A DNA stretch of 35,087 bases. Origin: a virus. Of the stretch, positions 24,801 to 29,693 are shown piece after piece (within the stretch, counting starts at the first letter, position 1; each line of letters opens with the position of its first letter). The notes under the pieces are model-generated. The model did not search any database. It saw only the letters and a program-made list of their open reading frames with translations, and was not told where the DNA came from. The stretch lies in UHGV virus genome UHGV-0145327. One strand, given 5' to 3'. Made by a program: the position numbers and the translations under genes.

Positions 24801-25744
24801 GCAATCCCCCTGTCTGCAAACTTCCCTTCCCGAACTCCCGTTAACGAGTCTTCTCTCAGCAGGTAATCAAAATCAGCCGTCCAGCCCGTGTCGTTGTCTC
24901 CGAAGTAAAACGGCTTGGCCTGATGCACAAACGCCCTGACATACGCTCTGAAACCGTCCACGTTTGGCGTTTTCAGTTGCGGGATGATTTTCTTCAGGCG
25001 ACGTTTGCGTTTCTCGTTGACCGCAACAGCGTGTGGCAGTCTGTCACCGACTTCGGTGTTGTAGGCGTTCAGGAAGGATTCGTAGTCGATTCGTTCTGCC
25101 TTGCGACGTTCAGGTTTAACCTGCCCATCGCCTCCCCCATTGGGGGGTAGGGGGGTATTATTTATATTCTTGTTAATACCTTCTTGTTCATGATGTGCGG
25201 TTGTTTGTGCGGCTTCATGTGCGCTTTCATGTGCGGCATGTGCGCTGAAAGCCGCGCCATTACTGGCTTCGTCATGTGCGGCATCATGTGCGGTTGTTTG
25301 TGCGGCTTCATGTGCGGGTAAATTGTCCATTTTTTGAGCATATTCATGGTAATTTGTGATGGTTATCACACGACCTTTTTGCTTCTCTCCATCAATGGAG
25401 ATCATCCCCTCTTTCACAAAAACCTGAAGCATCCGCTCAACCTGATCACGGCTTGCTGGCTTGCCATGCCTGTCGCATAACTGAAGACCTAAATCAGCTG
25501 CTGTCACAACCAGTTGACCGGGTTGCAGATGCCATTCATGACCTTTGAAATTCGCTTTGTATGGCTTTCTGGCGGCATTCAGGAGAAGGTTTTCCCACAG
25601 GGTGCGAAGATAAACATCTTTCGCCCATGACTGTTTCAGAATGCTCCGGTACAACGGAATGTAACCAGTTTTCTGGTTCTCCATCCTGTTGCTCCTGCGC
25701 TCGTGTGCGGCGCTGAAATCGTAGATTTTTGCTGTATTGCTCAT
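24797..25744 (-). CDS. Replication initiation protein (lambda O-like in role, 315 aa) with an internal His/Ala-rich repeat region
   Basis: Immediately upstream of and overlapping the helicase gene; central repeats [14 protein letters not shown]...[14 protein letters not shown] are encoded by DNA direct repeats; C-terminal ...[19 protein letters not shown]... resembles a conserved phage replication-protein C-terminal domain. Confidence 0.75.
25130..25320. repeat. Candidate replication origin inside the initiator gene: about 35-bp direct repeats with several CATGTGCG(G) units, next to an AT-rich stretch and a C5/G6 inverted repeat
   Basis: catgatgtgcggttgtttgtgcggcttcatgtgcg at 25189-25223 recurs as catcatgtgcggttgtttgtgcggcttcatgtgcg at 25283-25317; further CATGTGCG units at about 25229, 25238 and 25273; AT-rich tattatttatattcttgttaatacc at 25156-25180; CCCCCATTGGGGGG at 25133-25146. 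Confidence 0.5.
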
Positions 25745-26780: not shown

Positions 26781-27488
26781 ATGAAAACATTCGCAGAAAG
26801 ACTAAATGCAGCCATGAGCTCAGCAGGGGTATCACAATCACAGCTTGCTGACATGGTTGGAATATCTCAGCCAGCCATACAGAAGATGTCGTCCGGTAAA
26901 ACAAACGGATCTCGCAAGATGGTTGAATTAGCCAATGCTTTAAAAGTGCGCCCTGAATGGCTTAGTTCTGGTATTGGTGAAATGAGGGATGGTGCACATG
27001 AAGAACCATCCAATGTCCGTGAGTCATCTTTAAAAGCTGTGGTATGGGAAGACATTAAAAGAAACGATGACGAGTTTGTTGCGTTGCCTCTTCTTAACGT
27101 TTCGCTTTCAGCTGGAAGCGGTAGCTGCGAGCTAGAGGAATCATCGGAGTTCTCTTTGGTTTTCAGAAAGCACTATCTGAAAAAGATGGGAGTATCTGAA
27201 AGATCAGCCAAGCTAGTTAGGGTTGTAGGGCAAAGCATGGAACCAACGCTTCACGATGGCGATGTTGTTGGTGTTAACACGCAAGATACCACCATCAGAG
27301 ATGGTAAAACCTACGCTATTTGCCAGTCTGATTTGTTACGAGTAAAAACATTAATCGCCACCCCTACATCGGTGATAATCAGATCAATAAATCGCGAAGA
27401 GTACCCGGATGAAGTAATGGATAGAGATGAATTTCATGAAACCGTAAGGATTATTGGCAGAGTATTCTGGTCGTCTCATAGTTGGTAA
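26781..27488 (+). CDS. cI: CI-type prophage repressor with HTH and LexA-like S24 autocleavage domain (235 aa from MKTFAERL)
   Basis: HTH QSQLADMVGISQPAIQKM; C-terminal S24 motifs (VVGQSMEPTLHDGDVV Ser, downstream Lys). ATG 26751 is an alternative start but would overlap the third operator. Confidence 0.85.
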   Translation: MKTFAERLNAAMSSAGVSQSQLADMVGISQPAIQKMSSGKTNGSRKMVELANALKVRPEWLSSGIGEMRDGAHEEPSNVRESSLKAVVWEDIKRNDDEFVALPLLNVSLSAGSGSCELEESSEFSLVFRKHYLKKMGVSERSAKLVRVVGQSMEPTLHDGDVVGVNTQDTTIRDGKTYAICQSDLLRVKTLIATPTSVIIRSINREEYPDEVMDRDEFHETVRIIGRVFWSSHSW

Positions 27489-27978: not shown

Positions 27979-28064
27979 AATACCTTTGTTATCCATCACT
28001 TATAACTTATTTACCACAAAATATAAATTAGGTTATTGACCACACCTATAACCTAAGTTATCTT
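27979..28064. promoter_or_regulatory. OL/PL region: operator-like sites of the same ATAAC-N4-GTTAT family and a candidate PL (-35 TTGACC at 28036-28041)
   Basis: ATAACctaaGTTAT at 28048-28061 is a full site; ATACCtttgTTAT near 27980-27992 is a degenerate copy; TTGACC with TATCTT 17 bp downstream, pointing toward N. Confidence 0.5.
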
Positions 28065-28110: not shown

Positions 28111-28151
28111 GCTCTTTAACATTGATGGGATTGTCCCGCCGAAATGCGGGA
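28111..28151 (+). promoter_or_regulatory. nutL: boxA (GCTCTTTAA) and boxB hairpin (TCCCGC-cgaaat-GCGGGA) upstream of N
   Basis: boxA at 28111-28119; boxB at 28134-28151 has the identical sequence to the boxB found in nutR. Confidence 0.6.
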
Positions 28152-28258: not shown

Positions 28259-28531
28259 ATGACAGTAGTCATTACATATCTGGCTGACGATAACGCCAGA
28301 AATCGCCGCAGAGCACGCAGACAGGCTCAACGTGAACAGGCAATGCAAGAGCAGCGACTGGCGCGAAAAATTGCGCTAAAGCTCTCTGGTTGCGTCAGAG
28401 CAGATAAAGCAGCATCACTCGGAAGCCTTCGCTGCAAGAAGGCAGATGAATGCAGTGGAAGTATTTGCCTGCCAAACGTAGCCATTTACGCGGCAGGCTA
28501 CCGGAAATCAAAACAACTGACGGCGAGATGA
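28259..28531 (+). CDS. N: N-type transcription antiterminator (90 aa; P22 gp24-like)
   Basis: Arginine-rich motif DNARNRRRARRQAQREQ near the N-terminus; C-terminal LPNVAIYAAGYRKSKQLTAR matches the P22 gp24 C-terminus (LPGVALYAAGHRKSKQITAR) as recalled. Confidence 0.85.
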   Translation: MTVVITYLADDNARNRRRARRQAQREQAMQEQRLARKIALKLSGCVRADKAASLGSLRCKKADECSGSICLPNVAIYAAGYRKSKQLTAR

Positions 28532-28547
28532 TAAATTAATTTGCTAA

Positions 28548-29129
28548 TTACTTGTTTTTGCCATGCTTATACTGAGCGATAAGTTCATCCATAAGACTGT
28601 CTTTCTTCCCAGCAAACCTAATGTAGCACTCATTTCTATAGCGTTCCGGGATAACAAAACGGTCGATTTCAGGATATCCAGTAGCAGAAGGTACCCGAAT
28701 AAGAAGCCCTTTTTCGAGCAATGAGATTGCTTCAGGGCTTCCCTTTTCTGTCTTTAGCTGGTTATTAGCGGCTACAGCGAATGCCAAATACGCTCTTTCT
28801 CCAAGAGTTAACGAATCAAACAAATCTTGCACGTATTTCTCTTCTTTAGATTTGCGCTTCTGAGCAGCGAATATCTCAATTCTTTCAGTCACAGCGTGAT
28901 AAGCGGAATTAACAACGCCGTTAAGCACATAGCTAACGCAAAACAACAGGATGTAATACATCCAGTAATGAGGAAGGATTTCTGGATTATGCAGGTTTAT
29001 CCATTCTTTTACGCTTACAGGCATAACAATAATCAATATGATTAGGATGATTAGCATATGAATCAACTGTTTAAGTGTCATTCCTTGCAGGAAAAAATGC
29101 ATTAGTTCCTGCCACCATGAGTTGTTCAT
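28548..29129 (-). CDS. sieB: Superinfection exclusion protein SieB-like membrane protein (193 aa)
   Basis: Lies next to N on the opposite strand as sieB does in lambda; similar size (about 192 aa); N-terminal transmembrane segments (LIHMLIILIILIIVMPV, YWMYYILLFCVSYVL). Confidence 0.75.
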   Translation of the reverse strand: MNNSWWQELMHFFLQGMTLKQLIHMLIILIILIIVMPVSVKEWINLHNPEILPHYWMYYILLFCVSYVLNGVVNSAYHAVTERIEIFAAQKRKSKEEKYVQDLFDSLTLGERAYLAFAVAANNQLKTEKGSPEAISLLEKGLLIRVPSATGYPEIDRFVIPERYRNECYIRFAGKKDSLMDELIAQYKHGKNK

Positions 29130-29343
29130 CGGCGTTTCTCTTTTGCTCTCTGTAGGGGTGAATAGAGTTTATCCGATTTCTCGCTGTAGGGGTACACGAG
29201 AACCACCGAGCCTGATGTGGTTAAAAGACAGGCATACTAATAAACACTGCACTGTGTATTCATTCCAACGAGTGAATACACTGAGCAATGTCGCTCGTAA
29301 CTAAACAGGAGCCGACTTGTTCTGATTATTGGAAATCTTCTTT

Positions 29344-29369
29344 GCCCTCCAGTGTGAGGGCATTTTTTT
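29344..29369 (+). terminator. Intrinsic terminator in the PL operon (tL-like)
   Basis: GCCCTC-cagtgt-GAGGGC followed by ATTTTTTT. Confidence 0.6.
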
Positions 29370-29381
29370 GACGGAGAAAAT

Positions 29382-29693
29382 ATGAAATTACGTGTCTGGC
29401 ATATCCCGCAAGTACCTATGAAGCCGTTCATTGTAGAAGTGGCAAGTGTTGAAGAGGGTGTTCGCCTGATGGATGCACTGGCTGATTATGATGCCTTTCA
29501 GTATGACAACAATATCAAGCCTGACTACTGCAATGCTAACGGCCTTGAGATGTGGGATGAGAGCCTTATCGATGAAGATTTATCAGATATGGGGCTTACT
29601 GATCGCTGGGTGGATTGGTACAGCGAATGCCAATGTTACGACGACCCACGTAAATATCTCGAAAGCCTGAAAGAAGAAACATCAGCCGCCTAA
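29382..29693 (+). CDS. Hypothetical acidic protein (103 aa), first gene after sieB in the PL operon
   Basis: GGAGAAAAT-ATG start; Cys-containing acidic protein. Position corresponds to P22 gene 17 / lambda ral region, but I cannot confirm the family from sequence. Confidence 0.55.
   Translation: MKLRVWHIPQVPMKPFIVEVASVEEGVRLMDALADYDAFQYDNNIKPDYCNANGLEMWDESLIDEDLSDMGLTDRWVDWYSECQCYDDPRKYLESLKEETSAA

What the first reader, a model, noticed from the sequence alone, without database searches (positions are those of the whole stretch)
28548..29340. sieB-like exclusion gene with paired stem-loops in its upstream region
The SieB-like membrane protein lies antisense to the PL transcript next to N, as in lambda. 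In its upstream region (29140-29200, read on the sieB strand) two similar inverted-repeat elements share a CTGTAGGGGT core: CTCT-CTGTAGGGGTGAAT-AGAG near 29145-29166 and TCTCG-CTGTAGGGGTACA-CGAGA near 29178-29200. Their role is not evident from sequence.
Basis: partly seen in the sequence, partly recalled or inferred. Interest (0 to 1): 0.45.

Follow-up and report, generated by a model that had tools for sequence, protein, structure and literature searches.

The report
Known sas antisense RNA opposite sieB
The two look-alike stem-loops next to the sieB exclusion gene lie on the opposite strand, inside this phage's copy of the P22 "sas" antisense RNA that overlaps the sieB promoter and mRNA start, so the feature is real but already described.

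Summary
The repeats are real: CTGTAGGGGT at 29150-29159 and 29184-29193, each flanked by short inverted arms. The quoted sequence is on the + strand (the N / PL strand), not the sieB strand.

Window 29125-29234 is 107/111 identical to the published P22 sas small RNA. sas is the antisense RNA that switches translation of the sieB mRNA from SieB to its inhibitor Esc (Ranade & Poteete 1993). Transferring the P22 annotation places the sieB transcription start at 29159(-). So the mRNA begins ACCCCUACAG, the exact complement of core 1. Core 2 lies upstream of that start, in the -35 zone of the sieB promoter.

Stem-loop 2 (29178-29202, GGGG tetraloop) is a genuine RNA hairpin. It shows strong compensatory variation across about 75 distinct homologues, with G-U pairs favouring the + strand. 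Stem-loop 1 folds only on the + strand.

Beyond what I could find described: hairpin(s) plus a near-invariant 33-nt block (29203-29234) precede many unrelated opposite-strand genes in prophages of Enterobacterales. In two-hairpin versions the two cores change together, and the repeat starts at the predicted mRNA +1.

Verdict: already known element, ordinary copy. The wider cassette is a moderately interesting lead.

The parts
28548..29129 (-). sieB coding sequence (193 aa, superinfection exclusion protein B)
   Evidence: ORF list. Pfam PF14163 SieB, 90.4 bits, and phrog_1301, E = 1e-122. 98-99% identical DNA annotated as sieB in HK140 and VT1-Sakai.
28548..29057 (-). esc: in-frame internal start at Met25 of sieB, giving the SieB inhibitor
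   Evidence: The P22 record annotates esc starting 72 nt inside sieB. The ATG and its surroundings are identical in the window. Function is taken from the literature, not tested here.
29130..29159 (-). sieB 5' leader (30 nt); predicted transcription start at 29159, so the mRNA begins ACCCCUACAGAGAG
   Evidence: The P22 'sieB RNA start site' (L003 941) maps to window 29159 through alignment A2. The first ~25 nt are predicted to be unstructured.
29166..29196 (-). sieB promoter by homology; -10 TAAACT is the reverse complement of 29166-29171, and the -35 zone overlaps core 2
   Evidence: The P22 annotated promoter L003 948-978 maps here. The consensus scan does not call it because the -35 is weak.
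29125..29234 (+). sas-like antisense RNA. The 5' end lies opposite the sieB start codon. The 3' end is approximate; the window diverges from P22 after 29234.
   Evidence: 107/111 identical to nt 1-111 of the P22A-sas read cluster of PMC13397905 Table 2. No Rfam family matches.
29138..29167 (+). Stem-loop 1. It contains core 1 (CTGTAGGGGT, 29150-29159), which is the complement of the first 10 nt of the sieB mRNA.
   Evidence: Folds at -8.9 kcal/mol on +, using G-U pairs, against -1.3 on -. The stem register differs among lambda, HK620 and 606R2. RNAalifold predicts no consensus helix here.
29178..29202 (+). Stem-loop 2: UUCUCG-C-UGUA GGGG UACA-CGAGAA. It contains core 2 (29184-29193).
   Evidence: -9.9 kcal/mol, z = -2.8. 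Covariation: 87% of cells paired against 65% in shuffles; 174 double-change cells against 58 (0/500 shuffles reach this); 10 of 11 pairs show compensatory change. G-U pairs favour the + strand.
29203..29234 (+). Near-invariant block CCACCGAGCCTGATGTGGTTAAAAGACAGGCA; it forms the 3' part of sas
   Evidence: Identical in lambda and P22-like phages. Found in at least 120 IMG/VR contigs and 97 genome contigs of many Enterobacterales genera, with variable flanks on both sides. Function unresolved.
28259..28531 (+). N antiterminator gene. Upstream lie PL-like hexamers (28036-28064), boxA (28111-28121) and a boxB-like hairpin (28134-28151). This is the inferred source of rightward transcription across sieB.
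   Evidence: Pfam PF25694 and phrog_271. Promoter scan. Sequence read directly.
29244..29369 (+). Context downstream on the PL strand: a strong hairpin at 29244-29291 and an intrinsic terminator at 29343-29369, ahead of gene 17 (29382-29693)
   Evidence: Inverted repeat I1. -21 kcal/mol, z = -4.9. Terminator scan. gp17 is Pfam PF17420.

Best explanation
The paired elements belong to this phage's copy of the P22 sieB/esc/sas module.

Shown by homology and the literature:
- In a lysogen, sieB is transcribed leftward from its own promoter, starting at 29159.
- During lytic growth the opposite strand yields the small RNA sas (about 29125-29234).
- sas is fully complementary to the 30-nt sieB leader and start codon.
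- It blocks SieB translation but leaves the internal Esc start (29057) usable. Esc then neutralises SieB, so the phage escapes its own exclusion system.

Inferred here:
- sas is cut out of read-through PL transcripts. No conserved promoter precedes it, and no U-tract terminator follows it.
- Core 1 is simply the antisense of the mRNA's first 10 nt.
- Stem-loop 2 plus the invariant 3' block is the conserved functional domain of the RNA.
- The GGGG loop and 5' arm of stem-loop 2 carry a second copy of the sequence complementary to the mRNA 5' end. I propose this copy nucleates pairing with the unstructured 5' end, as the loop of IS10 RNA-OUT does with RNA-IN.

My confidence in the identity of the element is about 0.9. 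My confidence in the loop-to-5'-end role of stem-loop 2 is about 0.4.
For: Identity:
- 107/111 identity to the published P22 sas RNA; 96.6% over 115 nt to P22 records.
- The P22 record carries the mapped sieB start site and promoter, which transfer to 29159 and 29166-29196.
- The literature describes the sas translational switch.
- SieB, N and esc are all present.

Strand:
- Stem-loop 1 folds only on +.
- 23 of 25 stem-loop 2 variants fold better on +, with 30 G-U pairs against 5.
- In the model-fitted alignment, 62 G-U cells against 32 A-C cells.

Structure: stem-loop 2 covariation.

Coupling of the two cores:
- At least five different core sequences exist, each duplicated within its own locus.
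- Identity between the two 14-mers is 12.2/14 within a locus against 5.3/14 between classes. The within-locus figure comes from the 64 loci selected for at least 11/14 identity between the two copies, so it is high partly by construction.
- The offset is 33-34 nt in 54 of 64 loci.
- In 56 of 59 variants the repeat begins 5-7 nt downstream of a TAnnnT -10 on the cargo strand, which is the predicted +1.

Accessibility and pairing: the sieB leader is predicted unstructured, and the duplex of its first 16 nt with stem-loop 2 is -23 kcal/mol.
Against: - I could not read the original 1993 papers. The origin of sas (processing or its own promoter) and any published secondary structure are therefore unverified.
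- Published lengths for sas differ: 105 nt and 127 nt.
- The whole sas sequence does not fold better than shuffles (z = -0.64).
- Stem-loop 1 has no consistent register among homologues.
- A 4-nt loop is a small nucleation site, and pairing at stem-loop 2 would not cover the Shine-Dalgarno sequence.
- The alignment used for the pair counts was fitted to the model.
- No expression data exist for this particular phage.
Confidence: 0.85

Rival explanations
1. The two cores are DNA sites. A regulator binds direct repeats centred on the -35 region and on +1 of the sieB promoter and controls its activity.
For: Core 2 sits exactly at -34 to -25 and core 1 at +1 to +10 of the mapped promoter. The 33-34 nt spacing equals the -35 to +1 distance. 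The two cores change together, as two sites for one protein would.
Against: A DNA site does not need flanking arms that stay complementary while their sequence changes. G-U pairs that would be A-C mismatches on the other strand argue for RNA. The same core is kept in phages with unrelated repressors and N proteins, and no candidate binding protein travels with the cassette.
Confidence: 0.08
2. The hairpins act in cis on the PL transcript, as terminators, nut-like or put-like antitermination signals, or barriers that protect the upstream N message from 3' exonucleases.
For: They lie on the PL strand between N and the next rightward gene. Stem-loop 2 is stable and conserved. The sequence TGCTCTCTG before core 1 resembles boxA. 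The same hairpin in SfV was annotated as a putative terminator.
Against: No U-tract follows either hairpin, and the terminator scan calls neither. The boxA-like string is absent in lambda, P22 and Klebsiella versions. These ideas do not explain why the loop and 5' arm must equal the start of the opposite-strand mRNA. A stabilising role is compatible with the main explanation and is not a true rival to it.
Confidence: 0.05
3. The elements are secondary structures of the sieB mRNA leader that control its translation or stability.
For: They lie immediately upstream of the sieB start codon. Stem-loop 2 of this particular sequence can also fold on the - strand, at -9.1 kcal/mol.
Against: The mapped P22 start site puts +1 inside element 1, so element 2 is not transcribed into sieB mRNA. 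Element 1 does not fold on that strand. Homologues carry G-U pairs that work only on the + strand.
Confidence: 0.02

Closest known systems
P22 sas antisense RNA with the sieB/esc translational switch (Ranade & Poteete, Genes Dev 1993; cited in PMC12197685, PMC13397905, PMC7067206)
   Same: 96% sequence identity over the first 111 nt of the published sas read cluster. Same position opposite the sieB leader and start codon. Same promoter block. The same in-frame esc start 72 nt inside sieB.
   Different: Four substitutions or indels in the 5' part. The window diverges after 29234: gene 17 with a hairpin and terminator follows instead of ral. No expression data exist for this phage.
   Same: Identical block from core 1 to the end of the 33-nt module.
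   Different: The lambda SieB N-terminus and leader differ. The annotated start codon lies only 4 nt beyond core 1, and stem-loop 1 uses a different stem, AAACUGU/AUAGUUU.
IS10 RNA-OUT / RNA-IN. This is a comparison of how it works, from established knowledge, not a claim of membership.
   Same: The 5' end of the target mRNA is complementary to the loop and 5' side of the stem of an antisense hairpin. The target's 5' end is predicted to be single-stranded.
   Different: No sequence relation. sas appears to come from read-through transcription rather than its own promoter. It carries a second copy of the anti-5'-end sequence and a conserved 3' block. Pairing kinetics are untested.
Other lambdoid cis-antisense RNAs: lambda/P22 OOP against cII/c1, and P22 sar against ant
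   Same: Small phage RNAs fully complementary to a regulatory gene's mRNA. They appear together with sas among the P22 small RNAs.
   Different: Those RNAs have their own promoters and intrinsic terminators. Here no terminator follows, and the outcome is a switch between two start codons rather than simple repression.

Membership tests
P22 sas antisense RNA | Sequence homology to the P22 sas RNA | tested here: met
   107/111 identical to the published P22A-sas sequence. 96.6% over 115 nt to P22 genome records.
P22 sas antisense RNA | Complementary to the 5' leader and start codon of sieB | tested here: met
   The 5' end of the homologous RNA (29125) lies opposite the sieB ATG (29127-29129). 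The overlap runs to the inferred start site at 29159.
P22 sas antisense RNA | Target gene has an in-frame internal start giving Esc | tested here: met
   Met25 ATG at 29057-29055(-), identical to its context in P22, where esc is annotated.
P22 sas antisense RNA | Made by the infecting or induced phage; shifts translation from SieB to Esc | not testable with these tools
   Known only from the P22 literature. Needs RNA and protein measurements.
SieB (Pfam PF14163) | Score above the curated Pfam threshold | tested here: met
   90.4 bits against a cut-off of 26, covering residues 24-164. phrog_1301 over the full length.
Intrinsic (Rho-independent) terminator | G+C-rich hairpin immediately followed by a U-tract | tested here: not met
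   The scan calls sites at 29343-29369 and elsewhere, but none at stem-loop 1 or 2. AACCACC follows stem-loop 2.
nut site (boxA + boxB) | Conserved boxA followed by a boxB hairpin recognised by the cognate N | tested here: not met
   The boxA-like TGCTCTCTG is not conserved in lambda, P22 or Klebsiella homologues. The same hairpins occur with different N types. The genuine nutL lies at 28111-28151.
Any Rfam family | Match at the gathering score | tested here: not met
   No hit at gathering thresholds in the whole window. Only chance-level hits at E up to 10 in 28950-29420.

The most novel reading that the evidence does not exclude
The sieB/sas arrangement may be one instance of a portable regulatory cassette common in prophages of Enterobacterales.

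Its parts:
- On the early-leftward (PL) strand, a recognition hairpin followed by a near-invariant 33-nt block.
- On the other strand, a promoter positioned so that the cargo mRNA's first 10-14 nt are complementary to the hairpin's loop and 5' arm.

The cargo varies: SieB, phrog_1244 proteins and many small unrelated proteins. The same logic would apply to all of them. The gene is expressed in the lysogen and silenced or re-programmed by read-through antisense RNA once the phage turns lytic.

In two-hairpin versions the second copy of the anti-5'-end sequence is kept identical by selection. The invariant block would be a recognition or processing signal for a conserved host factor.
Probability: 0.4. 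Interest if true: 0.6.

Novelty: already known. Interest (0 to 1): 0.3.

Why it matters
For this window the result is a correct annotation. An unannotated stretch, carried by 18% of complete E. coli genomes and never labelled there, is the sas antisense RNA plus the sieB promoter.

If the wider cassette holds, it would explain how temperate phages carry abortive-infection or exclusion genes without harming their own lytic growth. It would also give a simple sequence signature, hairpin plus invariant block, for finding prophage-expressed accessory and defence genes and their antisense regulators.

Tried and rejected
- Rfam: nothing at the gathering thresholds, and only noise at E up to 10.
- The original 1993 papers, the P22 genome paper and two reviews are not held in the library. 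Three literature searches were swamped by the botanical author abbreviation 'Sieb.'.
- Anti-sRNA AgvB: I suspected the CA-rich leaders of one-hairpin cassettes were AgvB-like. AgvB maps to the PR' moron site, not here. Dropped.
- A dedicated sas promoter inside sieB: the CTTACA-17-TATGAT match at 29014-29042 is weakened in P22 and ST104. The region upstream of stem-loop 1 is not conserved among cassettes. Rejected.
- H-type pseudoknot in the 33-nt block (ACCAC/GUGGU and GCCUG/CAGGC):
  - A scan that left one arm free returned chance hits and one family member with a deletion.
  - Natural variants in the unconstrained arm mostly break pairs, 9 against 4 that remain wobble-compatible (my count from the sequences printed).
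  - Not supported.
- The block as a promoter:
  - In one-hairpin cassettes the opposite strand reads TT[ACT]ACC-16-TGgTATnnT, a plausible extended -10 promoter.
  - In two-hairpin cassettes, including this one, the adjacent -10 is lost, yet the block is equally conserved.
  - Promoter function alone therefore does not explain the conservation.
- Chi site and IHF or CRP sites in the block: checked by eye only; no convincing match.

Full report
**What is in the sequence**

- The ORF at 28548-29129(-) encodes a 193-aa protein. It is a clear SieB: Pfam PF14163 at 90 bits against a cut-off of 26, and phrog_1301 over its full length.
- Immediately to its left, on the + strand, is an N antiterminator gene (28259-28531; PF25694). 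It is preceded by PL-like hexamers (28036-28064), a boxA (28111-28121) and a boxB-like hairpin (28134-28151). Early leftward-operon transcription therefore runs along the window's + strand, antisense through sieB.
- Element 1 is CTCT / CTGTAGGGGTGAAT / AGAG at 29146-29167. Element 2 is TCTCG / CTGTAGGGGTACA / CGAGA at 29179-29201.
- They form a 17-nt direct repeat, 88% identical, 34 nt apart. The exact 10-mer occurs nowhere else in the window.
They are on the N/PL strand, not the sieB strand.

**Is it more than chance?**

One 10-mer repeated within 60 nt is not remarkable on its own. The window has 15 such pairs against about 2 in shuffles. Conservation settles the question.
- The block from core 1 to 29234 is identical in lambda and in a P22-like Salmonella phage, although their flanks differ.
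- The 126-nt region matches 145 phage records.
- It matches 988 of 5426 complete E. coli genomes, where it is never annotated.

**What it is**

- A recent P22 small-RNA survey lists the previously characterised antisense RNA sas with its sequence (PMC13397905, Table 2). Window 29125-29234 is 107/111 identical to nt 1-111 of that sequence.
- sas is the RNA that switches translation of the sieB mRNA from SieB to the in-frame inhibitor Esc, which lets P22 escape its own exclusion system (Ranade & Poteete 1993, as summarised).
- The curated P22 record BK000583 annotates the sieB RNA start site, the sieB promoter and esc. Through a 95%-identical alignment these map as follows:
  - transcription start at window 29159(-);
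  - promoter at 29166-29196, with -10 TAAACT;
  - esc start at 29057(-).
- The sieB mRNA thus begins 5'-ACCCCUACAGAGAG. Its first ten bases are the exact complement of core 1.
- Core 2 lies at -34 to -25, upstream of the start, so it is absent from the sieB mRNA.
- Both elements, and the 33-nt block after them, lie within sas.

**Which strand carries the structure**

- In the window itself, stem-loop 1 folds only on the + strand: -8.9 against -1.3 kcal/mol. Its pairing depends on G-U pairs.
- Stem-loop 2 (29178-29202; ten pairs, one bulged C, GGGG tetraloop) folds on either strand in this particular sequence.
- Among 25 distinct stem-loop 2 variants from related loci, 23 fold better on +. They have 30 G-U pairs there against 5 on the other strand.

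**Evidence that stem-loop 2 is a selected structure**

- RNAalifold predicts stem-loop 2 from a plain MAFFT alignment, with compensatory changes in 7 pairs.
- A covariance model built on stem-loop 2 plus the block found 102 copies in 100 sources.
- On that alignment (75 distinct rows):
  - 87% of cells are paired against 65% in shuffles;
  - 174 cells carry changes on both sides against 58 in shuffles (0 of 500 shuffles reach this);
  - the covariation score is 0.49 against at most 0.12 when partners are slid;
  - 10 of 11 pairs show compensatory change.
- Caveat: this alignment was fitted to the model.
- G-U cells outnumber A-C cells 62 to 32.
- Stem-loop 1 is less clear. Lambda, HK620, 606R2 and others each allow a hairpin, but in different registers, and no consensus helix is predicted.

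**A wider pattern**

- The block CCACC..GCCTGA.GTGGT.AAAAG(A)CAGGC is found in at least 120 viral contigs. It is also in 97 genome contigs from Escherichia, Salmonella, Klebsiella, Enterobacter, Citrobacter, Proteus, Providencia, Morganella, Xenorhabdus, Photorhabdus, Edwardsiella, Pantoea, Serratia, Arsenophonus and others. Both flanks vary.
- Upstream of the block there is either one hairpin or, as here, two.
- In two-hairpin loci the cores differ between lineages: CTGTAGGGGT, TTGTTGGGGA, GCATTGGGG, TTGACTGTGGAA, TTGTGGGGG, TTGCTGGGGAG. Within a locus, however, the two copies are nearly identical.
  - Identity between the two 14-mers is 12.2/14 within a locus against 5.3/14 between classes.
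  - The within-locus figure comes from the 64 loci selected for at least 11/14 identity between the two copies, so it is high partly by construction. The existence of several distinct core types, each duplicated in its own locus, does not depend on that selection.
  - The offset is 33-34 nt in 54 of 64 loci.
- The repeat always ends just after the G-run. In 56 of 59 variants a TAnnnT -10 lies 5-7 nt from that boundary on the cargo strand. The repeated segment therefore starts at the predicted +1. In P22 it starts at the mapped +1.
- The genes downstream on the opposite strand are diverse: SieB of the P22 and lambda types, phrog_1244 proteins such as HK620 hkaP, and many small unrelated proteins. 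The cassette is not specific to sieB.

**How it most likely works**

*Shown, by homology and the literature.* The lysogen transcribes sieB from its own promoter. The lytic phage produces sas, which covers the whole 30-nt leader and the AUG. SieB initiation stops while Esc initiation, 72 nt downstream, continues.

*Inferred.*
- sas is carved from PL read-through.
  - Nothing conserved precedes stem-loop 1 across cassettes with different cargo.
  - The one promoter-like match inside sieB is not conserved in P22.
  - No intrinsic terminator follows.
- The conserved functional domain is the hairpin next to the block, plus the block itself.
- In one-hairpin cassettes that hairpin is itself the antisense of the mRNA 5' end.
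- In two-hairpin cassettes the promoter sits 34 nt further on.
- The sieB leader is predicted to be single-stranded. Its first 16 nt can form a -23 kcal/mol duplex with stem-loop 2. This resembles the 5'-end-to-loop nucleation of IS10 RNA-IN and RNA-OUT.
- This last step is a hypothesis. I put it at about 0.4.

**What remains unexplained**

- The function of the 33-nt block is unresolved.
- In one-hairpin cassettes its opposite strand reads as a decent extended -10 promoter. Two-hairpin cassettes lack the adjacent -10 yet keep the block unchanged.
- A pseudoknot model gained no support.
- Conservation this strong across families of Enterobacterales suggests recognition by a conserved host component. 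I could not test that.

**Verdict**

The gene call and its context are right. The 'unknown' stem-loops belong to a known antisense RNA and promoter. The element in this window is an ordinary, near-identical copy, so the novelty rating is 'already known' and the interest is modest. The generalised cassette and the co-varying duplicate core are the parts worth following up.

Noticed in passing
window 29203-29234; loci L088-L207 and L257-L352: A near-invariant 33-nt block, CCACC..GCCTGA.GTGGT.AAAAG(A)CAGGC, occurs in prophages of many Enterobacterales genera with variable flanks on both sides. It is preceded by one or two hairpins, or in a 'CCACCGCG' variant by no hairpin. In one-hairpin loci the opposite strand reads as TT[ACT]ACC-16-TGgTATnnT, followed by AAGGAAA and the ATG of diverse small genes.
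   Followed up: partly
window 25190-25320: A dense array of about ten copies of (A/T)TGTGCGG, for example TCATGTGCGG, at spacings of 12-45 nt on the + strand. It could be a repetitive peptide-coding stretch or a set of iteron-like sites. Not examined further.
   Followed up: no
window 29244-29291 and 29343-29369: A very stable hairpin (-21 kcal/mol, z = -4.9) without a U-tract, then a classical intrinsic terminator, both on the PL strand just ahead of gene 17 (PF17420, 29382-29693). The hairpin sequence right after the block is also present in HK620; HK620 annotates terminators tL2A/B about 105-160 nt past the block, but I did not align them to the window's terminator.
   Followed up: partly
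window 29014-29042 (+): A sigma-70-like match, CTTACA-17-TATGAT, inside the sieB coding region and pointing towards the sas region. Both hexamers are weakened in P22 and ST104, so it is probably not the source of sas.
   Followed up: yes
window 29087-29112: An imperfect palindrome, GCAGGAA-N12-TTCCTGC, within sieB codons 6-14, about 13 nt before the position matching the 5' end of P22 sas. It could relate to tL1 or to processing of the PL transcript.
   Followed up: no
window 27360-27369 (-): A one-mismatch copy of the core, ATGTAGGGGT, lies on the - strand inside the repressor gene, so the repressor mRNA carries ACCCCUACAU. The window has three one-mismatch copies against 0.74 total matches expected. 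Probably chance.
   Followed up: no
loci L272, L274, L330 and similar: Very short, low-coverage contigs in assemblies of unrelated bacteria (Nocardioides, Pseudoxanthomonas, Aeromicrobium; possibly also Enterococcus and Paenibacillus, whose sequences were not compared) match the pattern. L272 and L274 are identical to lambda over the 130 nt printed and L330 nearly so. This looks like lambda DNA contamination.
   Followed up: partly
loci L091, L104, L101 and others: The hairpin 5' arms and loops are G/U-rich (UUGUUGUUGGGG, CUGUGUGAGA), so the predicted cargo leaders are CA-rich (CCCCAACAACAA, CUCACACAG). These resemble targets of the host small RNA GcvB. Untested; the AgvB lead was excluded.
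   Followed up: partly
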